Assembly: GCA_045594665.1 (NCBI GenBank)
Contig: JAZNYX010000062.1
Span: forward strand, 15,951-79,950
Direction: 5' to 3'
Source: Clostridia bacterium
Lineage (GTDB): Bacteria; Bacillota; Clostridia; UMGS1883
Length of the DNA stretch: 64,000 nt
The notes beneath the pieces were generated by a model. It was not told the DNA's origin. It saw only the letters and a program-made list of their open reading frames with translations, and searched no databases. A program made the translations under genes and the position numbers. Shown piece after piece: positions 1 to 13,657 of this stretch. Numbering within the stretch: the stretch's first letter is position 1; each line of letters begins with the position of its first letter.

Positions 1-30
1 GGATATCCTCCGCGAAGGGAGAGGATATCC
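1..30. repeat. perfect 10-bp inverted repeat hairpin (GGATATCCTC-N10-GAGGATATCC)
   Basis: Read directly: positions 1-10 are the exact reverse complement of 21-30. Confidence 0.6.
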
Positions 31-61
31 CGGCCTCAACGGCTGCTTGTTGTCTCAAAAA

Positions 62-116
62 TTTTAATACCGAAAGCATTTTTCGAACTTTTTCGAAGTC
101 CTTTCCGGTATTAAAA
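62..116. repeat. 15/16-bp inverted repeat enclosing two TTTTTCGAA motifs
   Basis: TTTTAATACCGAAAG (62-76) pairs with CTTTCCGGTATTAAAA (101-116) with one bulge. TTCGAA recurs at 82-87, 92-97, 137-142 and 180-185. Confidence 0.55.
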
Positions 117-200
117 GCATCAATTATACGTATAACTTCGAAGCTCCAACACCTATTATTATAGGGGTTCACGCACTTTTTCGAAGCATCGGAGTAAAAA

Positions 201-899
201 TTAGTATTTACATAAATATAGTTTTGCCAAGTAGAAATTTTTCTGGCTTGACTCCTCAATATGGCAGTTCCCCATATTCTTCATTATATGCCTTTCACAG
301 AGACCTAAGTAGTATTTAGCAACTCTCTTTACTCCTTTAATCCCTTGCTGTTTTATCGTCGTCATTAAAGCATTTATTTCGTTAATACTCTGTTTTGCGT
401 TATACTCATTGCACTTGTATGCAATTCTTGCGGCCTTTATTCTGACATCTCTTTCAGCAAGAGATTCCAAGGGGCTAGTATTGGGTTGGAGAAAAGAATA
501 TATCAAAGCTAATATATCCTCATCCTTGTCAATGCCTTTTGCATATAAAACCTCAAAAGTATTAGCGAGCAGGTCAAGATTGTGCTGCTCCATATACTTG
601 CCGGATGATAGCAACACATTTTTCATTCGGTCGCGATAATCCAACCAGTTTTTATAGGGGAAATGCTTTTGTAGTATGCTACAGTATGCATTCACATATT
701 CTACATCAAATATGCTTTCCTCTAATAGTTTTGTTATAACACTTACGGCACTATCTGCATAATGATTATTCACCATATAGTTTATCGCTTCGAGCATTGT
801 TGTCTTGTCATAACCCTCATTGAGAGCCTCTTTTGCAGCATTGAACATAACGGAATTATGTTTAATACCCTCTAATTCATTGTGTAAATCAACTTTCAT
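201..899 (-). CDS. hypothetical protein, predicted helical (232 aa); last gene of a 3-gene cassette
   Basis: Long ORF with AGGAGG 8 nt upstream of the ATG. The ATG lies 11 nt inside the end of the upstream gene, suggesting translational coupling. No family recognised. Confidence 0.55.
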   Translation of the reverse strand: MKVDLHNELEGIKHNSVMFNAAKEALNEGYDKTTMLEAINYMVNNHYADSAVSVITKLLEESIFDVEYVNAYCSILQKHFPYKNWLDYRDRMKNVLLSSGKYMEQHNLDLLANTFEVLYAKGIDKDEDILALIYSFLQPNTSPLESLAERDVRIKAARIAYKCNEYNAKQSINEINALMTTIKQQGIKGVKRVAKYYLGLCERHIMKNMGNCHIEESSQKNFYLAKLYLCKY

Positions 900-2640
900 C
901 TATTTTTCCTCCTATATCGTTTAAGATGTGTTTTTTCAGGTTATATCCTGTAACACTATTAATTTGCTTGCCGTTAATATAACTATTAATTTTTATTTCA
1001 TGCGTATTAAGGTTGCTTCTATGAGTCCCGATTAAGTCTTGTTCTTTCAGTGCTTTCAATAAAGCTTTTTCGGTAATATTCAATTCAATACCTTCTTCTC
1101 TCAATAGTTTTATGACCTTTTTAAACACGACATCTTTCTTTATGAAGTACTCATCGCTTCGTTCCAGCACATCAAAATCACTGCTGCCCTTTTGAGAGTA
1201 ATCAATTACTCTTAGCCTGTTAGAGTCTTTCAGTTCAAAGAACGCTCTGATAAACAAAGTTACCGGATCTCGCTCAAATTTATTATGCTGCTGGATAATA
1301 TGAGCTAAAAGCTCTTTTTTATAATCAAAATCAAGCTCTATTCCACTAATCGAGAAAAACTCGTTCATATAATCCCACATAACCGACATCCACGCTAACA
1401 TTTCTGGGTATCTACCATGGAGGTGGTGTTCATAAGTAATTTCAGTATATTTTTTTCGTTCATTTTCGACTTTAGTTATAAATTCTTTATCAAAGTCGTT
1501 AATGTTCATAATATACTGAATAAAACAATGAATAAATGAATTATATTTATCAATGTTATCAACCAACTCCGTTAAGACAGTATTGTTAATAGTGTTTTCA
1601 TCAAAATTTAGCATTAACATTCTGGGGAAGGAGGATGATTGCAGCTTAGGATATTCCTCTCCGGTGAAAAGTGCCAGGCCTGTGGTTACAGTTCCGTCTG
1701 GTCGTCCTCCGATAACAATCCCGCCGTTGGAGGTATCGTCTCCGCACAAACGAATAATCCTCTCCATACGTTCATTATTAGCTGTGGAGTTTATTTTAAA
1801 ATCATCCACCAAAGTACACCCATTTGAATTCTTTTTGAATTTTCTGGTAATAAGTGACATCGAGTCAGTAAAGCTACATTCGCAGTCTTTACTCTTAGTT
1901 GGGTTCGCTAGAGGCCTTGCCGTGGATGTCTTTCTCGAGCCAGTTTCCCCGATAATCGTCAGGGAGAACATCGGGGAAAATCGGTATGCTTCATAAAATC
2001 TTAATTTTAGTAAGCTGAGGAAATAGAAGAGCACAATTGAAATTATCGCAAACTTATTGTTGCTTAGGTTTTCTATTATTCTCGATACAAAGATACATAC
2101 ATCCTGACGGTCTACTATGAACATTTCATCATTTTGCTCTGGTATACAACGAATAATAGAATCTTGATCAACAATAAAGTCGCCATGTATGAATTTTGTA
2201 TTGTTTTCAATCCATCCATTTCCTATATAAACTTTTTTTACAGGCACTTCTTTTAAAGCAATATAATAAAGGTCAAAAAACAGTTTCCATATCTCATAGG
2301 TGAACTCGCAAAAAACTTTACCGCCAAAACGTCTCACATAATAGGCACGGCTACAAACTGAAACAGAGGAACGTTTGAATGCAACACTCATCTGTCCATT
2401 ATTATACAGATACAGGGTTTGCTCAGAATATTGGTCATCTTTGGTTACATATACTTTTTCCTCAACTGGAATTAGAAATGTGGAAATTTCAAAAGTTTCC
2501 TCCTCTTCTTCTCCAGACTGCTTGTTTTTCACACGTTTTGTATATAATATACTGATTTCGCCGTCATTTTCTTGAACCTCAAAATTTTCTATTTCATCAA
2601 TTATCCCCAGAAAATTCTGCAAAATTTCTTCAATAGACAT
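889..2640 (-). CDS. P-loop NTPase with deviant Walker A (583 aa), family unassigned
   Basis: Walker-A-like IIGETGSRKTS and Walker-B-like CTLVDDF about 45 aa later. AGGAGG 10 nt upstream of the ATG at 2640; the track ORF start at 2661 is a TTG inside the RBS region. Confidence 0.6.
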   Translation of the reverse strand: MSIEEILQNFLGIIDEIENFEVQENDGEISILYTKRVKNKQSGEEEEETFEISTFLIPVEEKVYVTKDDQYSEQTLYLYNNGQMSVAFKRSSVSVCSRAYYVRRFGGKVFCEFTYEIWKLFFDLYYIALKEVPVKKVYIGNGWIENNTKFIHGDFIVDQDSIIRCIPEQNDEMFIVDRQDVCIFVSRIIENLSNNKFAIISIVLFYFLSLLKLRFYEAYRFSPMFSLTIIGETGSRKTSTARPLANPTKSKDCECSFTDSMSLITRKFKKNSNGCTLVDDFKINSTANNERMERIIRLCGDDTSNGGIVIGGRPDGTVTTGLALFTGEEYPKLQSSSFPRMLMLNFDENTINNTVLTELVDNIDKYNSFIHCFIQYIMNINDFDKEFITKVENERKKYTEITYEHHLHGRYPEMLAWMSVMWDYMNEFFSISGIELDFDYKKELLAHIIQQHNKFERDPVTLFIRAFFELKDSNRLRVIDYSQKGSSDFDVLERSDEYFIKKDVVFKKVIKLLREEGIELNITEKALLKALKEQDLIGTHRSNLNTHEIKINSYINGKQINSVTGYNLKKHILNDIGGKIDES

Positions 2641-2888
2641 TTTTATCTTTCCTCCTTTCAAAAATGCCTGATGTAGATAATTTTTGCCTATGGATCTTTT
2701 AATTTTTCTGAATTATATTTCAAATATTTGAAGTAATAATTCATTATACATACCTCCCAATTCAATTTAGGAAATTGCTGTATTTCCTTCATGGATAATA
2801 TATCATGAGATTCTATAAAAATCCATAGGAGAAAAGAGTACTAAAAAATTCCTACCCGAAACTTAACTGCTTAGGTAGGAATTTTTTG

Positions 2889-3776
2889 CTATTTAATCTT
2901 GTTTTTTGCTCTTTCATATATTTCGTCTGTGGTTGCATGAAACGGATGCTTTGTCATGTTTTTTTGTTTTTTATTTTTGCAGTTTTGATACTCATCGTAA
3001 TCCAGACCAAATTTTTTACATATTCTCTGTTCTTCGTTTGCACGACTTGTTTCAGCAATAGTTTTTATTCCGGGAATATTATTAATTTCCGCATCAACAA
3101 AGCTAAACATACGCTCATCATTGGATAACTCAGTGGCGTGATAACAGAATTCATTAAACCGTTCTTCTGCTACGTTTTCAAATAAAGCAATGCTTTTCTT
3201 TATATTTTGCATTATTTCTTCAAAAAGCCTGATTTTATCACTTTCATAGAGATACTCCCAACATATAGTTTGATCGTCTTCATCAGTCCTATCTAAAACA
3301 AGAATTTTCATATATGTCTTGAATAAATCTAAAAAGTACCTCTCTTCATAGTATTTTCGTAAAATCGGATAACGAATTTTTTTAATTATGTTTTCCTTTA
3401 AGGTTAAAAACTCTTCGTCTTTTACATATGCTTTTACAAAATCAAACAGGTTCTGAAGTTCTTCTATATAATTCAAGTAATCACTATGATCTAAATTTTC
3501 CCCTTTTCTTATTTTTTTAAATAAAGCAGATTGTTCTTTGTCAAGTAATAGCATAATATAATTTTTTTGGGAAACATTTGCTTCAAACTCGTATTTTCCA
3601 CTTTCATTTTTCAAAAAAGAAAGATTATCAAGACCCAAGCAATTACAAGCACTGATAAGCTTCTTGCGCAAATATTTATGTCTCTCTTCAGCTCCCGCAG
3701 TATATTTATGTTCTTTTTTGTCTTCTGCAGTATATTTCTTCTCAGCATATTCATCAAAAATATCATTAAGCGTCAT
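2889..3776 (-). CDS. hypothetical protein (295 aa), first gene of the cassette
   Basis: Long ORF, Lys/Glu-rich and predicted helical. GGGGTGG lies 5 nt upstream of the ATG at 3776, with an alternative GTG at 3785. No family recognised. Confidence 0.5.
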   Translation of the reverse strand: MTLNDIFDEYAEKKYTAEDKKEHKYTAGAEERHKYLRKKLISACNCLGLDNLSFLKNESGKYEFEANVSQKNYIMLLLDKEQSALFKKIRKGENLDHSDYLNYIEELQNLFDFVKAYVKDEEFLTLKENIIKKIRYPILRKYYEERYFLDLFKTYMKILVLDRTDEDDQTICWEYLYESDKIRLFEEIMQNIKKSIALFENVAEERFNEFCYHATELSNDERMFSFVDAEINNIPGIKTIAETSRANEEQRICKKFGLDYDEYQNCKNKKQKNMTKHPFHATTDEIYERAKNKIK

Positions 3777-3889
3777 ATAAACCACCCCTAAAGAATCATA
3801 ATGTGAAACACTTACTAAAGTATATCATAAACAGGACGGTTTATCAATCCCATATGTTTTAAAAACAAAGAATTAATACTTTAACTTAA

Positions 3890-3919
3890 AAGGTGAGCAT
3901 TATTACCAATGCTCACCTT
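3890..3919 (-). terminator. stem-loop downstream of the HEPN gene
   Basis: AAGGTGAGCAT-N8-ATGCTCACCTT, an 11-bp stem 16 nt after the stop at 3935. The U-tract on the minus strand is weak. Confidence 0.45.
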
Positions 3920-3934
3920 CTGAATACATATTAT

Positions 3935-4336
3935 TTAGTTCCATTTTTCTTCCAAATGATTTTCAATTAATGTTAAAATTTTCTTTGCTTTTTCAAACTG
4001 GGTTAATGCATCATTTTTTGACACAACGTAAAAATCATCATAGTCGCTTGCCGTTCTTACTCTGAAAAGCGATGAAATGGAGTCTGAAAACTCTTTATCG
4101 AAAAAGTCTGTTTTTAAATAAAACTCCCTGAATTTTGCAATAATACCGGAATGCTTTTTTGAATCAAATTCATCAAGAATCAATACAGCCCTCATCGAAT
4201 GGAATGCAGCATAGTATGCTCTGTTTGCAGCACCTTTATACTCCCCGGCGGAAAGCAATATTTCAGATTCCTTAAGACAGTCTTTCGCATGTTCGATACG
4301 TGCTTTAGAAAGGTTTATCAAATCTTCGTTATGCAA
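3935..4336 (-). CDS. HEPN domain protein (UPF0332-type), toxin partner of the MNT
   Basis: NRAYYAAFHSMRAVL...KKHSG...RVRTASDYDD is the typical HEPN/UPF0332 pattern. The likely TTG start at 4336 overlaps the MNT stop (TTGCATAA). The track ORF extends to 4417 inside the MNT gene. Confidence 0.75.
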   Translation of the reverse strand: MHNEDLINLSKARIEHAKDCLKESEILLSAGEYKGAANRAYYAAFHSMRAVLILDEFDSKKHSGIIAKFREFYLKTDFFDKEFSDSISSLFRVRTASDYDDFYVVSKNDALTQFEKAKKILTLIENHLEEKWN

Positions 4337-4667
4337 TCTTAACCCCTTCTTTCGCAATATTCTTATAGAACGGGAGTATTTGCGAGTACTTCGTGTAAGT
4401 CTCGTAATCTTTCTCAATTATGGATACCAAAATGCCATAATCAAAAAGAAGTGTGCCACAGATTGAATCAATCTTATCGCGGTAAGCACTTATCTCATCT
4501 GTCGGCAAATTTGCAACTATAAGAATGTCCACATCGGATTCCTCGTCAAAATCGCCCCTTGCATAGGAACCGAACAATATCACATCAGCAAGCTTATCTT
4601 TAAATAAGTCTTTTGAAAAAGAAACAACCTTATCAAGGATTTCCTTGAGCATAGTCTGTGTGCACAT
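4329..4667 (-). CDS. minimal nucleotidyltransferase (MNT, NTP_transf_2), antitoxin partner of the HEPN protein
   Basis: ILFGSYARGDFDEESDVDILIV matches the GS-x-RGD ... DxD Pol-beta-type nucleotidyltransferase signature. It sits directly upstream of and overlaps the HEPN gene. Confidence 0.85.
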   Translation of the reverse strand: MCTQTMLKEILDKVVSFSKDLFKDKLADVILFGSYARGDFDEESDVDILIVANLPTDEISAYRDKIDSICGTLLFDYGILVSIIEKDYETYTKYSQILPFYKNIAKEGVKIA

Positions 4668-4833
4668 ATGACTCCCTCCTTCATTTTTATTATATCCTTT
4701 TACTATAAAAATTGCAATAATAATTTTTCACTTTCCTAAGTTTCACCGTCCTCTTTCTTTGCGTTATAAACTGCTACTATGACCTCAATCAGTGCCACCA
4801 GCACCAGTTTTATGTACTTCATATTCTTGTCAT

Positions 4834-5769
4834 TTATATTTCACCGCCCATATAGTAAATGTATTCTTCAATTTCTTCAGGAGAGAACCCTTTCCCGAGA
4901 AGCTTGTCAATATCATCGGGGGAATACCCCTGATAACAGGCTATTGATTTTAAATCCTCTATGTATTGATTTTTCGAGTAGGTTCTTCCCCATCCGCAGG
5001 AAGAAAATCCAAAATCCCACCAGTTCTTTCCGCTGTAGTAGCTGTATTCAAAGTTCTCTTTGGTAAGTTTTCCGCCATAGCCGATTTTAAGTATCTCACC
5101 TTCACTTATCTTGATTTCCTCATACTCAGCACTTTTAAGTTTCGGAAACAGCGGAGAATCTACAAGGGCTTTGTAGAGTATTTCATCAGTACTGGCATAG
5201 ACATAGAGCTTAAGCTTCGGAAAATGAAGTATTGATACAGGGGAATCACCCTTAACAAGATAGAGATTGTTTCTGTCATCAAGGATTGAAAAGCTGAAGC
5301 TTCCTTCAACCTTTTCTGCCATGTATTTAATACTGTCAAATCCGATTCTTTTCTAACTTTCTATAAGCTGTACCGCTATATATGAATCCGTTTCGACCTT
5401 TGTTTTGGGAAGCTTGTACTTCTTTTTTAATTCATCATCGTTATATAGTACTCCGTTATGTGCAAGGGAAAACCTTGCATTTTTTGTTTTGCCGAAAAAG
5501 GGATGATTGTTATAGTTTCTTTTCTCGCTTCCTTGGGTACTGTGGCGTGTATGACCTATCAGTGCTTTCAGGTTGTCGGAATGCTGAAAATCAATTTTAT
5601 TTGCAGCTTTTGCTTCTTTGATAATTCTGATTATTCCTCCGCTGACAAATGATATCCCCGTTGCATCTGTACCTCTTACGGATGCGTGTTCTGCAAGAGC
5701 ATTAGTAAGGTCAGACAATCCTTTAATGTCCTTATTACTGTAGTTTACAAATCCGAACAAACCGCACAT
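4834..5769 (-). pseudogene. class-II (Ntn) glutamine amidotransferase interrupted by one in-frame TAG
   Basis: The N-terminus MCGLFGF carries the Cys2 nucleophile, followed by HTRHSTQG and HNG motifs. ORFs 5353..5769 and 4834..5322 share a frame and are separated only by TAG at 5353-5355 (..VQLIES*KRIGFDSIKYMAEK..). Confidence 0.7.
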
Positions 5770-6357
5770 TTACATCTCCTCCGTTTCGCTTGATATTTCG
5801 TTTACATACAGTCGTTTCTGCTTAAGGTAGTCTATAAGCTCCGCTTTTTTGGGTAGAATCTTCTGCACAAAGTCACTCCAGGACATATTTTCCATTTCAA
5901 GGTCTGCCATATGAATCGCATGGAAGCATATTTCGTCTACAAGCTGAAGTGTAGCGATAAAGGTCTCGTGGTTGAGTGTTCCCCTGAACAGGCGAAATTC
6001 AATGGTATTGTTGTTTTCAAGGTTAACCGCAACATACCGCCCCATATGTCTGTCCTTGGCTTTCTTGTATGTTTCTTCCGTTGTGGTAGAGATAGTTGCA
6101 TATCTCGCCGCCCATCGGTTAAGATTCTCGATTGTTCTTCTGCTGAACTTAACTATTTCATTCCAATGCTTTTCTACGAAGAAAACAATTCTCCCTATAA
6201 CTGCTTCCTGCTGTTCATATGTTTTACCAAATGCATCTCTGCTTACGTGGATATGTAGCCCACATGTACTTGTCTGGTGTGACCTGTAGCCTAAGCTTAT
6301 GGCCTTATCAAAGACTTCGCTCCAGTTCATCTTATTCAGATGATAGTCAAGACTCAT
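5770..6357 (-). pseudogene. amidoligase-family protein (Amidoligase_2-like), apparently 5-prime truncated
   Basis: A TSTCGLHIHVS motif with following helices resembles the C-terminal half of glutamine-synthetase-like amidoligases. No N-terminal half and only a weak RBS. Its stop abuts the GATase ATG (TAAATG). Confidence 0.5.
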
Positions 6358-6508
6358 ATCCTACTTGTTTTTAAGGTACGATTATGTTATAATCAGCATA
6401 GCATAACAATCATTATGTGTCAATTTACACGCTTTATGTTGGAAAAACAATCATCTTTTTGAAAGTTTGCGTGATTCAAAAAATCAATTTATGAATGAGG
6501 TGCTTTAG

Positions 6509-7219
6509 ATGCCGTTCTATGAAAGAGAAGAAAAAATCCTAAACATGCTTATGCAGAAGAAAGAATACTCGGTAAACGAACTTGCTCAAAGACTTTATAT
6601 CAGTGTCCCTACCATGCGCAGGGATTTAATTAAGCTGGAAAAGAAGGGTAAAGTCATAAGAACACATGGCGGCGTAACTCTTATAAAAAAATCCGCCGAT
6701 TCTAAAATTCCATTTTTTCTTCGCGAATATGAACGAAACAGTGCCAAAGTCCAAATGGCGCAGAAGGCAACTGAATTTATTTCCGACGGTATCACAATTA
6801 TGCTGGACGGCACCACAAGTGCATACAACTTAATTCCGCATCTTTCTGATTTCAAAAATCTGATTGTTATTACAAGCGGTGTAAAAGCCTCTTTCGCACT
6901 GGCTGAAATGGGAATAGATAATATTTGCACCGGAGGCAGAATTCTTGATAAAAGCTTCTCTTATGTTGGTGAAGATACTTGCAGAACAATATCCGCCTAT
7001 AATGCAGACATTGTTTTTTTCTCCTGCAGAGGTGTCTCCGAAGATGGGTGGCTTTCTGATAATTCTCCCGAAGAAAACATTGTTCGCCGTACTATGATAA
7101 ACCGTTCAAAGAAAAAGGTTTTACTATGTGACAGCAGCAAGTTTGGAAAAACCTATCTGAACAATCTTTGTCATATAAGTGAGATTGACGACATTATTTG
7201 TGAAACCCAGCTTCCTTAG
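6509..7219 (+). CDS. DeoR family transcriptional regulator
   Basis: N-terminal HTH (ELAQRLYISVPTMRRDLIKLEKKGKVIRTHGG) plus a DeoR C-terminal sensor domain. Confidence 0.9.
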   Translation: MPFYEREEKILNMLMQKKEYSVNELAQRLYISVPTMRRDLIKLEKKGKVIRTHGGVTLIKKSADSKIPFFLREYERNSAKVQMAQKATEFISDGITIMLDGTTSAYNLIPHLSDFKNLIVITSGVKASFALAEMGIDNICTGGRILDKSFSYVGEDTCRTISAYNADIVFFSCRGVSEDGWLSDNSPEENIVRRTMINRSKKKVLLCDSSKFGKTYLNNLCHISEIDDIICETQLP

Positions 7220-7255
7220 TACATTAAAGATTTACTTAAATAATTTCCGGCTCTT

Positions 7256-7299
7256 GCCTGTAGCACAGCATACTCACCGCTGCTACAGGCATATTTTTT
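7256..7299 (+). terminator. intrinsic terminator between deoR and the oxidoreductase remnant
   Basis: GCCTGTAGCA-N15-TGCTACAGGC followed by ATATTTTTT. Confidence 0.6.
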
Positions 7300-7309
7300 A
7301 ATAAACCTC

Positions 7310-7836
7310 TTATAGATAAGCTCCGTTTTCTTTTAATGTTTCTCTCAATTCATTTATATCAATATCGCGTATTTTGCATTGCGACGTTACAGCTATTGCT
7401 GCGGCTGTTCCCGCTGCCTGCCCCATTCCCATACAAGGTGGCATTACCCTTACAGCTCCTGCTGCGGTCGAATCGGCACTAAGGCATCTGCCCGCAATCA
7501 GAAGCTGCTCTGCTCCTACAGGAACCAAACTGCGGTAAGGTATACCGTAATATTTTCCGCTGATGGGAATATATTCATTGCTCTTTGGTCCGAAACGTCC
7601 GTGAACATCTACTGAATTTGCTGCAAGCAAGATAGCATCATCGGGAACCATTGCCTGCAAAAGATCATCTGCCGTTAATCTATATTCACCCTTTATATGT
7701 CTGCTCTCACGAATTCCTACATAGGATGCAGTTGCCTTGAGCCTTGCATCAGCACAACCGGGAACATACTTTCTGAAGAAATTCATAATTTCATCAGCCT
7801 GTTTTCTTCCCACAATTTCAGCTTTCGTGAGGCTAA
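7310..7836 (-). pseudogene. 3-prime fragment of an FAD-dependent oxidoreductase (FAD_oxidored type), N-terminal FAD-binding part missing
   Basis: LTKAEIVGRKQ..FFRKYVPGC..GIRESRHIKGEY..IPYRSL..GRC..RVMPPCMGMGQAAG is the C-terminal third of this family. Recognisable similarity stops at about 7836, where the Rep-like ORF starts. Confidence 0.7.
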
Positions 7837-8918
7837 TGACTATACATACATTTGAAACGAGTTGCCTGCTTTCCGGAGATGATTACTATTTAATCCAAGA
7901 GAAGCTAAAAAAATCTGACCCATCCAAATGGGCAAAGGAATCAACCGGAATGAGCTACTGGGGACTTTCCAAAGAAGGAATCATAATAAAAATGTTTATA
8001 ACCAAAAACAAAAAGAAAGGCTTCTATGCCTACAATATCATATATAGAATATCCGCCCGACGTGTCATGAATAATCATGATTTTGTCGGGCTTTTTGATA
8101 CAAACGATTATGAAGAACTTGAAGCAAAAGCAAACTCTATCCTTCACAAAAAATGCAAGCTCCTCCCTGCTCTTGAGGAATGTAAAATGAGAAGAATTGA
8201 TTATTGCATTAACGCAGAGCTTGATAGCCAAGAACAGGTTAAGGCGTATATAAAGACAATGAAGCGAGCAAATGTTCCGAATCATCTTAAATTGCTCGAA
8301 GCATATGATAAAAAGTCAAAAAGAACAAAACCTATGAAAGATGCTTTTACAGTATACAACGATAACTATATAGCGGTTTCAATATATAACAAACAGCGAC
8401 AAATGATTAAAGAACAAAAAGAGTCAAACAAAGCTATTTTCCCCGAAGCAGAAATCAAGCAAGCGGAAAACATAGTCCGTATTGAAATACGTTGTATGGA
8501 AGGTAAGGTCAGTGAATTAAAGAAGAAATTCAAATTGAATAGTATTAGCGACTTTATGGAGTCTTCACAGGAAATAGGAGATTATTTATTCAGATATTAT
8601 CTATCAAGGATATATAATGACGGAAGAATCTGCACACTTTCAGAAGCGCTGAAAAGAATTGATATGGGCGAATATCGACCTGAAAACACGAAGCTTTTAA
8701 AAGAATTTATAGAGTATTCCAACCATTTCAGAAGTGCTGCAAAATCAGTCTCTCTGTACAGAGAATGCTCAGGTAAAAAGGAAGTTAATCGTATAATCTG
8801 GATGCTCTCTAATATAGAAACCAACTATGTTACTGCTACAACCGAAGTCGTAAAGTTGTTTGACAACGGATATATTCCTACACCATTTGAGCTGTATGAA
8901 GAGTGGTACATGCTTTAA
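7836..8918 (+). CDS. replication-initiator-like protein (resembles the Rep_trans / phage CRI type), tentative
   Basis: Motif pattern RIDYCINAEL ... FTVYNDNYIAVSIYNK ... IVRIEIRC resembles rolling-circle Rep proteins. ATG at 7836; the track ORF start at 7737 overlaps the oxidoreductase remnant. Confidence 0.45.
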   Translation: MTIHTFETSCLLSGDDYYLIQEKLKKSDPSKWAKESTGMSYWGLSKEGIIIKMFITKNKKKGFYAYNIIYRISARRVMNNHDFVGLFDTNDYEELEAKANSILHKKCKLLPALEECKMRRIDYCINAELDSQEQVKAYIKTMKRANVPNHLKLLEAYDKKSKRTKPMKDAFTVYNDNYIAVSIYNKQRQMIKEQKESNKAIFPEAEIKQAENIVRIEIRCMEGKVSELKKKFKLNSISDFMESSQEIGDYLFRYYLSRIYNDGRICTLSEALKRIDMGEYRPENTKLLKEFIEYSNHFRSAAKSVSLYRECSGKKEVNRIIWMLSNIETNYVTATTEVVKLFDNGYIPTPFELYEEWYML

Positions 8919-8970
8919 AAACATGTTGTCCCAAAGCTCAACTTGACTGGTACAATAAAACGCAGCTGAT

Positions 8971-9066
8971 ACTGCGTATTATAAGAACTTGACAGTAGTT
9001 TTTACTTGCGTATCATCAAATTTCGACAATAATTTTACTTGTGTATTATAAACTTGTGTGTTATAA
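8971..9066 (+). repeat. four iteron-like copies of ACT(T)GYGTRTTATAA
   Basis: Copies at 8971-8985, 9004-9018, 9037-9051 and 9052-9066; the last two are exactly tandem 15-mers. Confidence 0.6.
8989..9016 (+). promoter_or_regulatory. candidate sigma-A promoter TTGACA-N16-TATCAT
   Basis: TTGACA at 8989-8994 and TATCAT at 9011-9016, embedded in the iteron-like repeats upstream of the AAA ATPase. Confidence 0.4.
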
Positions 9067-9092
9067 TGGTTTCAGGAAACGGTGGTGTTATT

Positions 9093-10451
9093 GTGATCTT
9101 AAAGAGAAAAGCATACGATCAACTTTTATCATGGAAAAAAGAAACTAACGGAAAACGTGCAATTCTGGTTGAAGGTGCCAGACGTATCGGTAAATCCACA
9201 ATAGTTGAAGAATTTGCAAAAAATGAATATAAGTCATACATTTTAATTGACTTTGCAAAGGTCTCAAGCACAGTAATTGAGGCTTTTGAAAACCACAAAA
9301 ACAACTTTGATGAGCTTTTTATGATTTTATCTCTCGAATATGGTGTTAAGTTGTTTAAAAGAGAATCCGTAATTATTTTCGATGAAGTTCAGCTTTATCC
9401 TCAGGCAAGACAGCTTATAAAATATCTTGTTGCAGACGGAAGATATGACTATATCGAAACGGGCTCATTAATTTCAATCAAAGAAAATGTTCAGAATATT
9501 CTTATTCCCTCAGAGGAAAGAAAGCTCAAAATGTATCCTCTGGACTTTGAAGAATTCTGCTGGTGTCTAGGAGAAGAAATCTTAGTTGATTATATAAGGA
9601 AGTGCTTTAACGAACGCAGAGCTCTTGAAGAAAAACTTCATGACAAAGCAATGCTTCTTTTTAAGCAGTATATGCTTGTCGGAGGAATGCCCAAAGGTGT
9701 TATTGCCTTTTTAGAAGGAACCAGAGATTTCGACGCTGCTGACCGAGAGAAAAGAGATATTCTGAATCTGTATCGTGACGATATTTTAAAAATAACAGAT
9801 CGTTATCGTTCCAAAGTTTTGGCAATATTTGAACAGCTCCCGGGATTTTTGTCCAAGCATGAAAAACGTGTCGTTTTAAGTAAGATTGCCAAAGGTTCAA
9901 CACTTGATCAATATACTGACACATTTTTCTGGTTGGGAAATTCTATGATATGCAATGAATGCTTCCTCACAAGAGATCCGAATATTGGTCTTGCCTTGAA
10001 TGAAGACAGAAGCTATATCAAGTGCTATATGGGAGATACAGGACTTCTTATAAGTCACGCATTTGATGAAAATTCACTTGCAGATTCTGAATTATATCGA
10101 CAGATAATAAATGGCAAATTATCCATAAACGAAGGAATGCTTTATGAAAACGTCATTGCTCAAATGCTTATTGCAAATGGTCATAAGCTATATTTCTATA
10201 CTCACTACAATGATGAAAAACGCAGAAACGATATTGAAATTGATTTTATTATTTCGAACAACGATAAGCTCAAATACAAAATTTATCCAATCGAAGTCAA
10301 ATCATCAAAAAAATATTCTATTTCCTCTCTCCAGCGGTTTAAGGAAAAATACACTTCACGAATCGGCGAATGTTATGTAATCCATCCTAAAAATTTCAGC
10401 ATGAAAGATGGAATTACTTACCTGCCCGCATATATGGCTATGTGTTTATAA
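9093..10451 (+). CDS. AAA_14 ATPase with a C-terminal DUF4143 (PD-(D/E)xK-like) domain
   Basis: Walker A EGARRIGKST, Walker B IIFDEVQ and a C-terminal EIDFII...YPIEVKSS nuclease-like motif. GTG at 9093 with GGTGG upstream is the likely start; the track start at 9039 lies within the promoter/repeat region. Confidence 0.85.
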   Translation: MILKRKAYDQLLSWKKETNGKRAILVEGARRIGKSTIVEEFAKNEYKSYILIDFAKVSSTVIEAFENHKNNFDELFMILSLEYGVKLFKRESVIIFDEVQLYPQARQLIKYLVADGRYDYIETGSLISIKENVQNILIPSEERKLKMYPLDFEEFCWCLGEEILVDYIRKCFNERRALEEKLHDKAMLLFKQYMLVGGMPKGVIAFLEGTRDFDAADREKRDILNLYRDDILKITDRYRSKVLAIFEQLPGFLSKHEKRVVLSKIAKGSTLDQYTDTFFWLGNSMICNECFLTRDPNIGLALNEDRSYIKCYMGDTGLLISHAFDENSLADSELYRQIINGKLSINEGMLYENVIAQMLIANGHKLYFYTHYNDEKRRNDIEIDFIISNNDKLKYKIYPIEVKSSKKYSISSLQRFKEKYTSRIGECYVIHPKNFSMKDGITYLPAYMAMCL

Positions 10452-10640
10452 ATCCTTTCTAACAACTTTCTAACAAAATGCAAAATTTCATGATTTTCAA
10501 GAAATGGCGTGCACAAAAGAAAAGCAAAGGTAAAAGCATGTAAGTTCCGCTTAATGTAGGCATTTATTCGGGTTTTGTTTGGCAAAAAATAAAACTAAAA
10601 AAAGAGGGCTAAAACCCCAACCATTCCCCTACGAACCAAA

Positions 10641-10673
10641 GGGTCGGGGGTTCGAATCCCTCCAAGCACGCCA
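10641..10673 (+). other. tRNA 3-prime-end fragment (T-arm, acceptor 3-prime strand, CCA) with no 5-prime half
   Basis: GGGGG-TTCGAAT-CCCTC T-arm, then CAAGCAC-G-CCA. The complementary acceptor strand GTGCTTG is absent upstream. Confidence 0.6.
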
Positions 10674-10679
10674 AAAAAG
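10656..10679 (+). repeat. 24-nt direct repeat ATCCCTCCAAGCACGCCAAAAAAG, copy 1
   Basis: Identical to 10864-10887. Confidence 0.8.
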
Positions 10680-10681
10680 CG

Positions 10682-10718
10682 AAAGATACCTACGAAGTGG
10701 GTATCTTTTGCTTTTTTG
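10682..10718 (+). terminator. intrinsic terminator after tRNA-like fragment 1
   Basis: AAAGATACC-N9-GGTATCTTT followed by TTGCTTTTTT. Confidence 0.55.
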
Positions 10719-10863
10719 CTTGAAATAAAAAGGATTCGAACCCTGAGAGGGCAGCGAGCGTTAAGAAAACGATTGATAATCGTTTTTAGCTCGTTGGTGC
10801 GAAGTCCGGTACCGAAATGCGTAGCATTTGGGTGGACAAGCAGGCAAGATGCGTAGCATCTGT

Positions 10864-10887
10864 ATCCCTCCAAGCACGCCAAAAAAG
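10864..10887 (+). repeat. 24-nt direct repeat, copy 2 (acceptor/CCA part only)
   Basis: Identical to 10656-10679. Confidence 0.8.
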
Positions 10888-10926
10888 AACAGGCATCCAC
10901 GTTAGTGGGTGTCTGTTTCTTTTTGC
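10888..10926 (+). terminator. intrinsic terminator after tRNA-like fragment 2
   Basis: AACAGGCATCCAC-GTTA-GTGGGTGTCTGTT (G-U pairs) followed by TCTTTTTGC. The stem sequence differs from that of copy 1. Confidence 0.5.
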
Positions 10927-11256
10927 TTGAAATGAAAGGGATTCGAAGCCCCGACCCGTGGGGAGGGGGAACCGAGCCTGACCGCCGCCTGTGGCAGATG
11001 AAGCGAGGGCGCAGGGTAGCGAAGCGGCGGCGAGGAAGTGAATGACAATCCGGTGAATTGTCAGAGCCGAGCCGTGACCGAACCGCAGTGAGAAGGCAGC
11101 GGTCGACAGATGGCAAGGTGATTTATCACCGCAGGCAGATGTCGGGCACCGCAAACGGGTAGAATCCCGGATTCGAACCCCTTTGCTAAAATGTAACAAA
11201 AACTGCCCCGTCCCCAAACTGTGCGACGTCCCCAAACTGTGAAAAAGCGTGCCATT

Positions 11257-11333
11257 CTGAGCGGAGCCGAAGGCGAAGTGGAAGAATCTCAAAAGTTAAA
11301 TGAGATCCTTGCACTTCGCTAAGCTCTCTCAGG
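11257..11333. repeat. REP-like imperfect palindrome
   Basis: CTGAGCGGAGCCGAAGGCGAAGTGGAAGAATCTC, an 11-nt loop, then GAGATCCTTGCACTTCGCTAAGCTCTCTCAGG. Confidence 0.55.
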
Positions 11334-11359
11334 ATGACACACCCTTTTTTGTTACCTGC

Positions 11360-13642
11360 TTAATTTTTAGTCTTAACTACAATCACTCTGACGATGCCGC
11401 CGCTTGAAAGCGACCTATCGGAATACAGCATAATATTCTGAATATTTTCACTGTTTGTAAGCTCCGATACAGACATGGAGGTGTAATTGTTTGCGTAGGT
11501 TCCTCCGTAGACCTTCACATAGTCGCTTAGTATATAGTTCTTTCCGTTTACACGGATTCTGCTTCCGCTGTAGCCCTCTATCTTTGATGCCGAGCCAACA
11601 TTGGTAAGCCTTTTTGCAATCTGTCCGTCGCTTGTCTGCTGAATTTCCACTGCGCAGCCGCGTTCAAGCTTTACTGCCGTTTCAATTTGTGTGGTCCTAT
11701 CTCCAAGCAAAACTGTATATCTGTTTTTATTGACCTCCGTTACCACGCCGAAATCTGCATCTGTTTTTGTGACATCGGTCACGTAAAGGAATGTGATGTC
11801 CCTGAGTGCACCGCTTGTTTCTGCATGAAGCACCTGGTTTTTGGTAAGACTGTCGGTAATAATGTCACGCAGCTCAATCTTTTTTACAGTTGCACCGCCG
11901 GCAGTATTTTCCACAAGCTCCAGAATTGCACAATTTTCCGAAAGCCAATATTCTCCCAATGAGGGTATTGAGGAATCAAATTCGCCGTAAATATTTGTAT
12001 GCTTTACTACAGTGAGCTTTGCCACATCGTTTTCATATTTAACTTTCATCACATTTCCTATATAGTCACTATAGTCACGGTCTGCTTCGTAGGTAACCTC
12101 GCCTCCGTCGGGAAGGACTACCGTAATATAGTTAGTAGTTTTTCCCAAAGTTTCGGTTTCCTGCGATACTTCCTTATAGCTTTTTGTCAGTACAACCAAG
12201 TCAAGGCTTCCCACCGCCGCAAGATTTACAACATCCACAACTTCGCCGTCTCTGCCAAAGAGCAAGGTTACACGGTCTCCCAGTTCAAATGCACCCTCGG
12301 AGGTATTCATTTTTCCGATTGCCGTTTGAGTGGAGAGAGGATATTCCTTGCCGCCTACTTTTACGCTTGTAACATTTGATTTAAGAGGGTATGCTTCCTC
12401 ATAAGCACCGCTGACTTTGTCGGTGTAGGCATAAAGGGTATTATTACCTGCCATATAATATACGACATCATATGCCTGAATTTCGGAAAGCGATGCGTTT
12501 CGTCCGTCACGCACTACTTTCATTGTGCCGCTGTTTACAATGCTAAAGAAAGAATAAATCTGAGAATAACCCGTGGTAACCGTTCGCGGTCCTGAAAGAG
12601 TGCTTTCCTTTAAATACATTCTTGCAAAGCTTCCGTCATTAGCATAAAGAAGGAGCGCTTCACTGCCTGCCTCAAGCTTTGCCGCACTCTGGGATAGCGT
12701 AGAGGCTTTGCCTTCATAATAAAGGGGAGCGTTCCCCGGGAGGCTTTCAGCCTTTGATGTTCCATTTTCCGTAAAGCCGATTTCCACCCTTCTGCCGTCA
12801 CCGCTTACGGCGGCACTTGAAAGGGTAACGCTTCTTACAGTTTCGTTTTCAGGAACAAATGCGGTTGCCCGCTTTTCGCCATCAAGGTACAATGTGCCTA
12901 ATCTTCCGTAAACCTCGGAGGTAATATTTGAGTTATCGGCAAGCTTATATACTCCGTTCGTTGTTTCGATGTTTCCTATTGCAAGCCCTGCATTAATGCT
13001 GTTGTCACCATAGATTACAACATCCTTTACAGAGGAGGAGCTTAAAAGCGAAAGGGATGAGCCCTCTTTTTTGTCGGCAAGAAGCGTATTATATATTACA
13101 TACGCCGCATTGCCACGTGTGATATTTTCGTATGTTCCGAAGGATATTCCATTGGTAATTCCAAGGGACTGTGCCTTTGTAATATAGCCATCGGGCCACT
13201 TATATGCAACATCCTCGCCCGTATACCCTAAAAGCCTTATGAGAATGGTAAGTGCCTGAGCATAATTAATGGTATCCTCTGCTCCGAAACTGCCGTCGGG
13301 ATAGCCGTTTATTATCTGATGCTCCGCTATGTAATTAATATATCCGCTTGCCCAATGGTCTGTGGGAACATCGCTGAAAATGGCGTTTGCACTGCGTGAG
13401 GCTGCCTGCTGCTCTTCACCCAGCATACATACGGCAATTTTTGCAAACTGACCTCTCGTTAAAGTGTCCTCGGGTCTGAATGTGCCGTCGGGATAGCCGT
13501 TTATTATCCCAAGCTGTACAAGCTGTTTTACGGCATTTCCCACACCCGTGTTGACATTTACATCTTCAAATGCAGCAAATGCTCCGATATTTACAAACAT
13601 CATTAAAGCTGTTATAAGTGCTGTTATTTTTATTTTCATCAT
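11360..13642 (-). CDS. SLH-domain cell-wall-anchored protein (760 aa)
   Basis: Signal peptide, then three SLH repeats (INGYPDGTFRPEDTLTRGQFA; INGYPDGSFGAEDTINYAQA; WPDGYITKAQSLGI..ITRGNAAYV), then about 560 aa not matched to any family by eye. Confidence 0.85.
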   Translation of the reverse strand: MMKIKITALITALMMFVNIGAFAAFEDVNVNTGVGNAVKQLVQLGIINGYPDGTFRPEDTLTRGQFAKIAVCMLGEEQQAASRSANAIFSDVPTDHWASGYINYIAEHQIINGYPDGSFGAEDTINYAQALTILIRLLGYTGEDVAYKWPDGYITKAQSLGITNGISFGTYENITRGNAAYVIYNTLLADKKEGSSLSLLSSSSVKDVVIYGDNSINAGLAIGNIETTNGVYKLADNSNITSEVYGRLGTLYLDGEKRATAFVPENETVRSVTLSSAAVSGDGRRVEIGFTENGTSKAESLPGNAPLYYEGKASTLSQSAAKLEAGSEALLLYANDGSFARMYLKESTLSGPRTVTTGYSQIYSFFSIVNSGTMKVVRDGRNASLSEIQAYDVVYYMAGNNTLYAYTDKVSGAYEEAYPLKSNVTSVKVGGKEYPLSTQTAIGKMNTSEGAFELGDRVTLLFGRDGEVVDVVNLAAVGSLDLVVLTKSYKEVSQETETLGKTTNYITVVLPDGGEVTYEADRDYSDYIGNVMKVKYENDVAKLTVVKHTNIYGEFDSSIPSLGEYWLSENCAILELVENTAGGATVKKIELRDIITDSLTKNQVLHAETSGALRDITFLYVTDVTKTDADFGVVTEVNKNRYTVLLGDRTTQIETAVKLERGCAVEIQQTSDGQIAKRLTNVGSASKIEGYSGSRIRVNGKNYILSDYVKVYGGTYANNYTSMSVSELTNSENIQNIMLYSDRSLSSGGIVRVIVVKTKN

Positions 13643-13657
13643 ACTCGCTCCTTTCGA

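What the first reader, a model, noticed from the sequence alone, without database searches (positions are those of the whole stretch)
201..3785. Orphan three-gene cassette built around a deviant P-loop NTPase: candidate novel defence or element-maintenance module
Three co-directional minus-strand genes encode proteins of 295, 583 and 232 aa, and only the middle one has a feature I can name. That protein has a Walker-A-like IIGETGSRKTS, with Arg where the canonical second Gly sits, and a CTLVDDF Walker B about 45 aa downstream. Roughly 230 aa on the N-terminal side and roughly 250 aa on the C-terminal side match no family I recognise. The last two genes are translationally coupled: they overlap by 11 nt and the AGGAGG lies inside the upstream gene. 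The cassette is in an AT-richer block, directly beside a HEPN-MNT toxin-antitoxin pair and a decayed amidoligase/GATase module. That neighbourhood is typical of defence islands and degraded mobile elements. The NTPase could be an SF3/DUF927-like element helicase or the ATPase of an uncharacterised multi-gene immune system.
Basis: partly seen in the sequence, partly recalled or inferred. Interest (0 to 1): 0.7.

Follow-up and report, generated by a model that had tools for sequence, protein, structure and literature searches.

The report
Mobile-element replication helicase with unknown partner
The "deviant P-loop NTPase" is a divergent relative of the replication-initiator helicases of staphylococcal SCCmec and SaPI islands; it sits with a conserved but uncharacterised partner protein inside a partly decayed genomic island inserted at a tRNA-Arg gene of an uncultured gut Clostridia bacterium, so it is an element-replication module and not a new immune system.

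Summary
The three ORFs, the motifs, the 11-nt overlap and the neighbourhood are all as described. The 583-aa protein is not an orphan. A profile search finds 891 relatives, 18 of 60 sampled hit Pfam DUF927, and longer relatives carry fused primase domains. A confident AlphaFold model (pLDDT 90) matches the SaPIbov1 Rep helicase (8tch, E=3e-14) and SCCmec Cch (5dgk, E=3e-13) over its full length. The non-Gly Walker A residue is a family trait.

In nine lineages (helicase identity down to ~31%) the helicase is followed by an overlapping homologue of the 232-aa protein. Where enough contig was recovered, a recombinase follows: Xis plus a tyrosine integrase, or a large serine recombinase. DUF960 lies upstream in three lineages. 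A CTTCGA[AG] repeat cluster next to the pair looks like an iteron origin.

The 295-aa gene is a separate transcription unit flanked by terminators. It recurs upstream of the helicase in one deep lineage, and other genes replace it elsewhere. A 45-nt tRNA-Arg 3' fragment at 10629-10673 marks the far end of the island, which is damaged (truncated amidoligase, nonsense mutation in the GATase).

Verdict: a new variant of a known kind of replication module, with two uncharacterised protein families. There is no evidence for defence.

The parts
1..200 (-). Non-coding region downstream of g3. It is the candidate replication origin or cis site. It holds CTTCGAA at 92-98, 136-143 (palindromic) and 180-186; TTTTTCGAA three times (79, 89, 177); an inverted repeat at 62-75/103-116; and a hairpin at 1-10/21-30. 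In relatives it leads into the xis-like gene.
   Evidence: Four of the window's eight CTTCGAA copies lie here. CTTCGA[AG] gives 14 hits in 1182 nt of the equivalent intergenic DNA of 7 lineages, against 14 in 41,331 nt elsewhere. The region is colinear with L001/L002/L007 up to the window edge, 45 nt before their HTH_17 gene.
201..899 (-). g3: a 232-aa conserved partner of the helicase. It is translationally coupled to the helicase, and its family is uncharacterised.
   Evidence: Full-length homologues (23-37% identity) overlap the helicase stop in all nine lineages. No hit in Pfam, PHROGs, PDB sequences, plasmids or phages. dN/dS is 0.17-0.22.
889..2640 (-). g2: a 583-aa DUF927-type (Cch / SaPIbov1 Rep-like) AAA+ replication-initiator helicase. 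The model shows an N-terminal beta-rich domain (~1-175), an ATPase core (~196-350; K237, D279/D280, E328, S336, R340), a helical domain (~353-472; R410), and a C-terminal helix-helix-beta-hairpin domain (~478-576).
2641..2842 (-). Leader and promoter region of the helicase operon. It holds a conserved extended -10-like TGATATATT (2797-2805), an 18-codon mini-ORF with its own GGGAGG (2688-2744), and a highly conserved ~60 nt ahead of the helicase ATG.
   Evidence: Read from the sequence and from the alignment of five loci. The promoter assignment is an inference.
2843..2887 (-). Intrinsic terminator after g1. It separates g1 from the helicase operon.
   Evidence: dG -21.8 kcal/mol, z -6.0, followed by a U-run. 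The stem is kept by a compensatory change in L009. Analogous terminators follow the upstream gene in L016 and L017.
2889..3776 (-). g1: a 295-aa protein of unknown family. It is monocistronic and is one of several alternative occupants of the slot upstream of the helicase.
   Evidence: Only 2 close relatives among 5.8 billion proteins. A 27%-identical full-length homologue sits at the same position in L016. A promoter-like TTGATA-17-TATACT lies at 3819-3847. dN/dS is 0.25.
3890..4667 (-). MNT-HEPN toxin-antitoxin pair with its own terminator (3890-3919). It is island cargo.
   Evidence: It is 99-100% identical to the pair in L005.
4834..6357 (-). Decayed GATase (nonsense codon at 5353-5355) and 5'-truncated amidoligase. 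Homology to intact islands ends at 6358.
7737..10451 (+). Far arm of the island. It holds a Phage_CRI-like HUH Rep/relaxase-type gene (7737-8918) and an AAA_14-DUF4143 ATPase (9039-10451; PADLOC PDC-S01).
   Evidence: The 393-aa protein is 43% identical to the 349-aa gene at the equivalent position in L001 and L005.
10629..10673 (+). A 45-nt 3' fragment of tRNA-Arg(ACG), from the anticodon loop to the CCA. It is the distal attachment-site junction and so the end of the island.
   Evidence: It is identical to the 3' part of the intact tRNA-Arg that lies beyond the integrase in L001. ARAGORN calls no tRNA here. It coincides with the GC step.

Best explanation
Window 1 to about 10,630 is one arm of a genomic island integrated into the 3' end of a tRNA-Arg(ACG) gene of an uncultured gut Clostridia bacterium. 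The finding is the island's replication module.

g2 encodes a divergent DUF927-family AAA+ helicase of the SCCmec Cch / SaPIbov1 Rep type. By analogy with those proteins, after excision it would bind short repeats next to its own operon through its C-terminal winged-helix-like domain. It would then assemble as a ring, melt the origin and unwind DNA 3'->5', so that the excised circle is copied.

g3 is translationally coupled to g2, which would favour co-production of the two proteins. It is an obligate accessory factor of this helicase clade. Its role is unknown; a loader, regulator or origin-recognition role is a guess.

g1 is a separately transcribed accessory gene of unknown function. It occupies a replaceable slot upstream of the helicase.

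Shown here: homology, fold, conserved catalytic residues, gene linkage, transcription-unit structure, the motif cluster and the att fragment.
Inferred: helicase activity, origin function of the repeats, the role of g3, and the presence of xis/int just beyond the left edge of the window.
For: Family size: a profile search finds 891 relatives at E<=1e-3.

Family identity:
- A 47%-identical homologue passes Pfam DUF927 (29.0 bits against a cut-off of 22.6).
- 18 of 60 relatives hit DUF927. Others carry Prim-Pol (6), DnaG zinc-ribbon (2), PriCT_1 (2) or Toprim domains.

Fold: the AF2 model has pLDDT 90.3 and pTM 0.79.
- Foldseek against PDB gives 8tch SaPIbov1 Rep at E=3e-14 and 5dgk Cch at E=2.8e-13, over 588-606 aligned columns. 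The next hits (MPXV E5, SaPI5 PriRep, D5) are near 1e-4.
- BFVD returns DUF927 and Toprim-fused proteins.

Catalytic residues: K237, D279, D280, E328, S336, R340 and R410 are invariant in 60 sequences.

Context:
- helicase, overlapping partner, Xis, tyrosine integrase in L001-L004, L007 and L015-L017;
- a large serine recombinase instead in L005 and in a C. butyricum megaplasmid;
- DUF960 upstream in L001, L005 and L011-L013.

Partner: homologous in all nine lineages and diverging in step with the helicase.

Motif: the cluster is about 35-fold enriched beside the pair. It is retained in elements with serine recombinases.

Island end: tRNA-Arg fragment.

Literature:
- Cch is a DUF927 protein related to SaPIbov1 Rep (PMC7581432).
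- SaPI Reps are self-loading helicases whose iterons lie immediately downstream of rep (PMC9371898).
- SCC-like islands with DUF927 helicases occur across Bacillota (PMC10061031).
Against: - The window protein itself gives no Pfam DUF927 hit, and the family profile does not reach Cch or Rep by sequence. Membership rests on transitive homology and a predicted fold.
- TM-scores are moderate (0.44-0.56).
- No primase or ssDNA-binding protein is recognisable in these islands.
- The partner lies downstream of the helicase and has no counterpart in SCC or SaPI.
- The motif was defined after looking at the data.
- xis, int and the intact tRNA are outside the window and could not be retrieved.
- This copy of the island is damaged, so the module may no longer be used here.
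Confidence: 0.8

Rival explanations
1. The helicase does not act as a self-loading theta-type initiator. Instead it is the dedicated unwinding helicase for rolling-circle replication or mobilisation started by the island's Phage_CRI-like HUH protein (o393 and its 349-aa relatives). The arrangement would resemble ICE relaxases, which need a helicase. The CTTCGA repeats would then be loading or regulatory sites and not an origin.
For: - A Phage_CRI-like gene sits at the far arm of the window island (22.0 bits against a cut-off of 21.7) and of L001 and L005. PHROG 702 'replication protein' gives a weak match.
- No primase is recognisable in these islands. Rolling-circle leading-strand synthesis would tolerate that.
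Against: - The closest solved relatives (SaPIbov1 Rep, Cch) are initiator-helicases with C-terminal origin-binding domains (PMC9371898).
- The short contigs L015-L017 show helicase, partner, xis and int without a visible HUH gene, though they are truncated.
- The Rep-like gene and the helicase are far apart and diverge at different rates between the window and L005 (43% against 85% identity).
Confidence: 0.15
2. The helicase-partner pair, with or without g1, is an uncharacterised anti-phage or anti-plasmid defence system carried as cargo.
For: - The neighbourhood contains defence-type cargo. In the window: MNT-HEPN and an AAA_14-DUF4143 ATPase (PDC-S01, 5e-107). In L001: SIR2 and Schlafen/AlbA genes.
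- g1 and g3 have no known family.
- SaPI-type islands are known to interfere with phages.
Against: - No PADLOC hit for g1, g2 or g3.
- The fold and the family are those of replicative initiator helicases.
- Relatives are fused to primases.
- The pair sits at a fixed core position next to xis/int or a serine recombinase in all contigs long enough to show it. It does not sit in the variable cargo slots.
Confidence: 0.04
3. In this genome the module is an inert relic. The island is decaying and no longer excises or replicates, so the genes have no current function.
For: - The amidoligase is truncated at 6358 and DUF960 is lost.
- The GATase carries a nonsense codon.
- A DeoR gene and an oxidoreductase fragment occupy the breakpoint.
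- The far arm is only 43% related to that of L005, which suggests a mosaic or a fusion of tandem islands.
Against: - g1, g2 and g3 are full length with every invariant residue intact.
- Across relatives they evolve under purifying selection.
- The putative origin region and one att junction are intact.
- This rival concerns present activity, not identity, so it is compatible with the main explanation.
Confidence: 0.2

Closest known systems
SaPIbov1 Rep (PDB 8tch), the replication-initiator helicase of a Staphylococcus aureus pathogenicity island
   Same: - Best structural match over the full length (E=3e-14, 588 aligned columns).
- Encoded on an integrative island next to xis and int.
- Short repeats lie next to the helicase operon, as SaPI iterons do (PMC9371898).
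   Different: - About 12% sequence identity, and no sequence-profile hit.
- No pri gene upstream.
- A 232-aa partner gene is coupled downstream.
- No packaging genes or Stl-type genes are recognisable.
- The host is a gut Clostridia bacterium and the island sits at tRNA-Arg.
SCCmec Cch (PDB 5dgk), the DUF927 MCM-like helicase of staphylococcal cassette chromosomes
   Same: - Full-length fold match (E=2.8e-13).
- Family link to DUF927.
- Co-occurs with DUF960 and with recombinases, including large serine recombinases in L005 and C. butyricum (PMC12540322, PMC10061031).
   Different: - No upstream LP1413 (cch-associated) gene, no DUF950 and no DUF1643.
- The gene order differs.
- Most relatives use a tyrosine integrase and a tRNA site rather than Ccr recombinases at rlmH.
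- A conserved downstream partner is present.
Phage and plasmid primase-helicase fusions (Prim-Pol, or DnaG/Toprim, joined to DUF927)
   Same: The ~450-residue helicase module is homologous to the C-terminal part of these 650-1070-aa proteins.
   Different: The window protein has no primase domain. Its N-terminal ~175 residues form a beta-rich domain, as in the stand-alone Cch/Rep proteins.

Membership tests
DUF927 / Cch-SaPIbov1 Rep initiator helicases | Full-length fold like the solved members (N-terminal domain, AAA+ core, C-terminal DNA-binding domain) | tested here: met
   The AF2 model has pLDDT 90.3. Foldseek gives 8tch at E=3e-14 and 5dgk at E=2.8e-13, probability 1.0, 588-606 aligned columns, TM 0.44-0.56.
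DUF927 / Cch-SaPIbov1 Rep initiator helicases | Sequence-profile match to Pfam PF06048 | tested here: inconclusive
   The window protein gives no hit at E<=1. Its 47%-identical homologue P0005 scores 29.0 bits against a cut-off of 22.6. 18 of 60 relatives hit at E<=1e-3. The link is therefore transitive, not direct.
DUF927 / Cch-SaPIbov1 Rep initiator helicases | Intact ATPase motifs (Walker A Lys, Walker B acidic pair, conserved Arg residues) | tested here: met
   K237, D279, D280, E328, S336, R340 and R410 are invariant in 60 sequences. A non-Gly residue at position 236 is usual in the family.
DUF927 / Cch-SaPIbov1 Rep initiator helicases | Encoded on a mobile element beside its recombination genes, with relatives fused to or adjacent to primases | tested here: met
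DUF927 / Cch-SaPIbov1 Rep initiator helicases | Iteron-type origin next to the helicase gene | tested here: inconclusive
   A CTTCGA[AG] cluster lies beside the pair in 6 of 7 independent lineages (7 counting the relocated pair in L005) and is about 35-fold enriched. The motif was chosen after seeing the data, and binding is untested.
DUF927 / Cch-SaPIbov1 Rep initiator helicases | Hexameric ring, ATP-dependent 3'->5' unwinding, origin binding | not testable with these tools
   Biochemistry is required.
Staphylococcal cassette chromosome (SCC) elements | Ccr-type large serine recombinase(s) and insertion at rlmH | tested here: not met
   The window flank is colinear with tyrosine-integrase islands. 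The att fragment is from tRNA-Arg. Only L005 and the C. butyricum locus carry a serine recombinase.
Staphylococcal cassette chromosome (SCC) elements | Core DUF set (LP1413, DUF950, DUF960, DUF1643) around the helicase | tested here: not met
   DUF960 is present in relatives but is lost from the window island. The other three were not found in any locus.
SaPI / phage-inducible chromosomal islands | pri-rep-ori module together with a master repressor and packaging (terS or capsid-remodelling) genes | tested here: not met
   A Rep-like helicase and a candidate origin are present. No primase, terS or capsid-related family appears in the window island or in L001/L005.
Known or candidate anti-phage defence systems (PADLOC-DB 2.0) | Profile match of any of the three proteins | tested here: not met
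   g2 and g3 of the pair, and g1, give no credible hit. g2 and g1 have none, and g3 has only a 14.6-bit CARF-model hit.
STAND NTPases (nSTAND3) | Match above the gathering score that extends beyond the P-loop | tested here: not met
   21.9 bits against a cut-off of 27.2. Only 55 residues around the Walker A motif align.

The most novel reading that the evidence does not exclude
This helicase clade may depend on a previously undescribed, obligatory second subunit: the 232-aa partner, which is always translationally coupled downstream. That would make it a two-protein initiator, unlike the self-loading single-protein Cch and SaPI Reps. The partner could load or gate the helicase, recognise the origin, or substitute for the missing primase or SSB. 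The g1 family may be a lineage-specific regulator of this module.
Probability: 0.3. Interest if true: 0.5.

Novelty: new variant of a known kind. Interest (0 to 1): 0.3.

Why it matters
The practical result is a correct label. It removes a false lead for defence-system discovery. It also shows that SCC/SaPI-type replicative islands, with DUF927-type helicases and DUF960, extend into uncultured gut Clostridia, where they use tRNA-targeting tyrosine integrases as well as serine recombinases.

The open part is modest but real. Two protein families have no detectable relatives outside these islands. One of them is strictly coupled to the helicase, and a candidate iteron origin lies beside the pair. 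These give a concrete, testable model for how such islands replicate without a recognisable primase or SSB.

Tried and rejected
1. Direct library scans (Pfam, PHROGs, PADLOC, NCBIfam) of the three proteins gave nothing usable. The weak nSTAND3 hit covers the P-loop only, and the weak DUF960 hit to the g2 N-terminus (E=0.06) was judged to be chance.
2. The first AF2 model, from a 6-row alignment, was unusable (pLDDT 54). It was replaced by a model from a 60-row alignment.
3. Sequence-profile searches of PDB with the helicase family found only generic P-loop matches. Only the fold comparison reached Cch and Rep.
4. Scans for the close family in GTDB genomes, IMG/VR and JGI metagenomes found nothing. 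The phage collection had no hit, and plasmids gave only a 28% match in C. butyricum.
5. The partner g3 had no hit in Pfam, PHROGs, PDB sequences, plasmids or phages.
6. For g1, a weak CBL-B four-helix-bundle match (E=0.007) weakened to 0.065 when the divergent homologue was added, so it was rejected as spurious. g1 has no plasmid or phage relatives.
7. I first concluded that g1 was a one-off cargo gene. I withdrew that conclusion after finding its homologue upstream of the helicase in L016.
8. I tried to fetch the window's own contig to see xis, int and the tRNA. It is not on record.
9. The CTTCGAA motif is not enriched over the whole window (8 observed, 11.3 expected). Only its local clustering is significant.
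10. The simple terminator scan missed both strong hairpins because of its loop-size rule. They were confirmed by folding.
11. Rfam found nothing in 1-14,000.
12. The Cch structure paper (PMC5052118) is not held in the library.

Full report
**1. The observation**

The three minus-strand ORFs are present as described.
- g1 is 2889-3776, 295 aa from the ATG.
- g2 is 889-2640, 583 aa from the ATG behind GAAAGGAGG.
- g3 is 201-899, 232 aa.

g2 carries IIGETGSRKTS (residues 229-239) and CTLVDDF (275-281). g2 and g3 overlap by 11 nt, with AGGAGG inside g2. The block is AT-rich: GC is 0.29-0.41 up to about 10.5 kb and 0.42-0.50 beyond.

It abuts an MNT-HEPN pair and a damaged amidoligase/GATase pair. 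None of the three proteins gives a confident hit in Pfam, PHROGs, PADLOC or NCBIfam. Pairwise dN/dS against diverged relatives is 0.10-0.26 for all three, so they are real genes.

**2. What the 583-aa protein is**

The word-indexed search found only five relatives. The most distant, P0005 (47% identity over the full length), passes Pfam's DUF927 gathering score at 29.0 bits against 22.6.

An exhaustive profile search found 891 representatives at E<=1e-3 and 361 at E<=1e-10. Many are 650-1070 aa long and match through their C-terminal ~450 residues. Of 60 sampled members, 18 hit DUF927. The N-terminal extensions are Prim-Pol (6 members), DnaG zinc-ribbon (2), PriCT_1 (2) and Toprim domains.

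With this 60-row alignment, AlphaFold2 gave a confident model (pLDDT 90.3, pTM 0.79). A 6-row alignment had failed (pLDDT 54). Foldseek against PDB places two proteins far ahead of everything else, both aligned over the full length:
- the SaPIbov1 replication-initiator helicase (8tch, E=3e-14);
- SCCmec Cch (5dgk, E=2.8e-13).

The next matches (MPXV E5, SaPI5 PriRep, vaccinia D5) are near 1e-4. The viral structure library returns DUF927 proteins, a 'ring shaped helicase' and Toprim fusions.

The literature places these proteins together:
- Cch contains DUF927 and is related to SaPIbov1 Rep (PMC7581432).
- DUF927 modules replace MCM, DnaB or RepA next to mobile-element primases (PMC5862659).

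The 'deviant' Walker A is a family trait. Position 236 is Arg in 19, Gly in 12, and mostly F/L/M/Y in the other 29 of the 60. K237, D279, D280, E328, S336, R340 and R410 are invariant.

There is a caveat. The window protein does not itself hit DUF927, and the family profile does not reach Cch or Rep by sequence. Membership therefore rests on transitive homology plus a predicted fold.

**3. Genomic context**

Every contig that carries a relative and is long enough to show it has the same core.
- The helicase comes first, then an overlapping 232-249-aa gene.
- Next comes a small Xis-like gene (HTH_17 or Tn916-Xis) and a tyrosine integrase (L001-L004, L007, L015-L017).
- In L005 two small genes and a large serine recombinase take the place of xis and int. 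A C. butyricum megaplasmid has DUF960, then hypothetical genes, then a helicase homologue, then small ORFs, then a serine recombinase.
- DUF960 lies upstream, either directly (L011-L013) or separated by an amidoligase-GATase pair and a variable slot (L001, L005).

DUF927, DUF960 and a recombinase together are the signature of SCC cores (PMC12540322). SCC-like islands with DUF927 helicases have been described across Bacillota (PMC10061031).

Window 1-215 is colinear with the intergenic DNA that leads into xis and int in L001, L002 and L007. The window ends 45 nt before their xis start.

At the other end, window 10629-10673 is identical to the 3' 45 nt (anticodon loop to CCA) of the intact tRNA-Arg(ACG) that lies beyond the integrase and its cargo in L001. 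ARAGORN finds no tRNA there, and the orientation is the one expected for the distal junction. The island therefore spans from before position 1 to about 10.63 kb, which matches the GC step.

The host is an uncultured gut Clostridia lineage. Its ValRS is 98% identical to that of MAG SGB_1304. No GTDB representative genome, including the MAG that shares that 98%-identical ValRS, gave a close helicase homologue. That fits an accessory element, with the caveat that MAGs are incomplete.

**4. The partner, g3**

The gene downstream of the helicase is homologous to g3 in all nine lineages examined. Its identity to g3 falls in step with that of the helicase:

| Locus | Partner identity to g3 | Helicase identity to g2 |
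|---|---|---|
| L008 | 37% | 47% |
| L012 | 30% | 37% |
| L014 | 29.5% | 35% |
| L015 | 29% | 34% |
| L017 | 27% | 31% |
| L016 | 23% | 32% |

It always overlaps the helicase stop codon, by 8-52 nt. The profile of the family matches nothing in Pfam, PHROGs, PDB sequences, plasmids or phages. It is never fused to a helicase in the proteins held. It is absent from the 28%-identical C. butyricum locus.

Neither SCC nor SaPI has a counterpart. LP1413 is a short protein (about 100 aa; cf. the 291-nt cch-associated gene in PMC12540322) encoded upstream of cch, and SaPI pri is upstream of rep. The conserved unit is therefore a two-gene module. The second protein is an uncharacterised, clade-specific accessory factor.

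**5. g1**

g1 has only two close relatives among 5.8 billion proteins. Both lie directly upstream of a helicase homologue (L005, L009). A 27%-identical full-length homologue occupies the same position in L016, where the helicase is only 32% identical. So g1 is not a random insertion.

The slot is replaceable, however:
- L001-L004 and L007 have an unrelated 480-522-aa gene on the opposite strand.
- L017 and L015 have a 384-aa family.
- L011-L013 have DUF960 directly upstream.

g1 has its own promoter-like site. It is bracketed by strong terminators: after HEPN (dG -21.2, z -7.0) and after g1 (dG -21.8, z -6.0). The g1 terminator stem is kept by a compensatory change in L009. L016 and L017 also have a terminator between the upstream gene and the helicase.

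So the helicase-partner pair is always its own operon.

**6. A candidate origin**

SaPI iterons lie immediately downstream of rep, on both sides of an AT-rich centre, and are bound by the C-terminal winged-helix domain (PMC9371898). The putative Cch2 origin lies between cch2 and ccrC (PMC7581432).

In the window, the 200 nt after g3 contain four of the window's eight CTTCGAA copies. They also hold three TTTTTCGAA repeats, AT-rich spacers and inverted repeats.

Across seven independent lineages, CTTCGA[AG] occurs 14 times in 1182 nt of the intergenic DNA after the partner gene, against 14 times in 41,331 nt elsewhere (expected 0.40; Poisson P=2e-17). Further copies lie in the 3' end of the partner gene.

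The cluster is present in L012, where the next gene is not xis. In the serine-recombinase island L005, the only two copies in 16.5 kb lie together just after the recombinase gene. That argues against tyrosine-integrase arm sites and favours a cis element that belongs to the helicase-partner module.

Two caveats apply. The motif was chosen after inspection, and palindromic copies count twice. L015 has no copy; by eye its spacer instead carries GTCGA-type repeats, which was not tested.

**7. State of this copy**

Homology to L005 (about 91% DNA identity over 213-6358) stops in the middle of the amidoligase gene at 6358. DUF960 and the amidoligase N-terminal half are missing. The GATase carries one CAG->TAG change. 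A DeoR gene and an oxidoreductase fragment follow the breakpoint.

The far arm encodes a Phage_CRI-like protein only 43% identical to its L001 and L005 counterparts, and a DUF4143 ATPase. The island is thus a mosaic or a partly decayed copy. The replication module itself is intact.

**8. Mechanism and rivals**

Best supported is an island replication module. A DUF927-type initiator-helicase would bind the adjacent repeats, self-assemble and unwind, helped by a coupled accessory protein. Identity confidence is about 0.8. The origin assignment and the role of the partner are inferences.

Rivals:
- The helicase serves rolling-circle replication started by the HUH Rep-like protein (0.15).
- The module is a defence system (0.04). 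Against this: no PADLOC hits, a replicative-helicase fold, primase fusions in relatives, and a fixed core position.
- The module is an inert relic in this genome (0.2). This is compatible with the main identity.

**9. Novelty**

The helicase is a divergent member of a known family. The island belongs to a known class of SCC/SaPI-like replicative islands of Bacillota.

New here are the strictly coupled partner family, the g1 family, the candidate iteron, and the occurrence in uncultured gut Clostridia at a tRNA-Arg site. I rate it a new variant of a known kind, with interest 0.3.

Noticed in passing
window 10658-10673 and 10866-10881; non-coding stretch ~10680-11360: The tRNA-Arg 3' end (CCCTCCAAGCACGCCA) occurs twice, 208 nt apart. 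Each copy is followed by a similar hairpin, a T-run and GCTTGAAAT..GGATTCGAA. A GC-rich stretch of about 700 nt with no convincing gene follows. This may be the scar of successive integrations at the same tRNA site, or a tRNA-like repeat array.
   Followed up: partly
window 9039-10451 (+): A 470-aa AAA_14 + DUF4143 ATPase matches the PADLOC candidate defence family PDC-S01 (E=5e-107). It lies at the distal end of the island, next to the att fragment.
   Followed up: partly
window 7737-8918 (+); L001 980-2029; L005 4127-5176: A Phage_CRI-like (HUH rolling-circle Rep or relaxase-type) protein sits at the far arm of the islands. The window copy is only 43% identical to those of L001 and L005, although the helicase arm is 85-90% identical. 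That suggests a mosaic origin.
   Followed up: partly
window 2688-2744 (-); L001 ~6690-6720: An 18-codon mini-ORF (MNYYFKYLKYNSEKLKDP) with its own GGGAGG lies in the helicase leader. It is conserved in L005, L006 and L009. L001 and L007 have a different 10-codon mini-ORF (MCTYCNATGSG) at the same place. It may be a regulatory leader peptide.
   Followed up: partly
window 6358-7813: At the breakpoint where island homology ends there is a DeoR-family regulator (6509-7219, +) and the C-terminal fragment of an FAD-dependent oxidoreductase-like gene (7310-7813, -). These look like captured or rearranged host DNA inside the island.
   Followed up: no
L001 10864-16433: Between the integrase and the intact tRNA-Arg, L001 carries an 851-aa SIR2_2 protein and a 383-aa Schlafen/AlbA_2 protein. 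L004 has a 594-aa SIR2_2 protein at the same place. This is a defence-cargo hotspot at the integrase-proximal end of the island.
   Followed up: no
L001 5009-6451 (-); L007 129-1697 (-): An orphan 480-522-aa gene (74% identity between the two copies) is transcribed divergently from the helicase operon and replaces g1. It has no Pfam or PADLOC match. The divergent arrangement recalls the repressor/activator switches of SaPI-type islands.
   Followed up: partly
L001 60-746 (-); L005 3193-3891 (-): A 228-232-aa trypsin-like peptidase matches the PADLOC candidate PDC-S45 (E=4e-24). It follows the Rep-like gene and a small HTH_17 gene at the far arm of the islands.
   Followed up: no
L011 9042-9823: In L011 the partner gene is split into two ORFs (89 aa and 177 aa). 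In L012 and L013, which carry the identical helicase, it is intact. This is either a frameshift or an assembly error.
   Followed up: no
window 3935-4417 / 4329-4667 (-): The longest HEPN ORF (TTG start, 160 aa) overlaps the MNT gene by 89 nt. The identical L005 gene is called as 133 aa with an 8-nt overlap, so the shorter, translationally coupled start is more likely.
   Followed up: no
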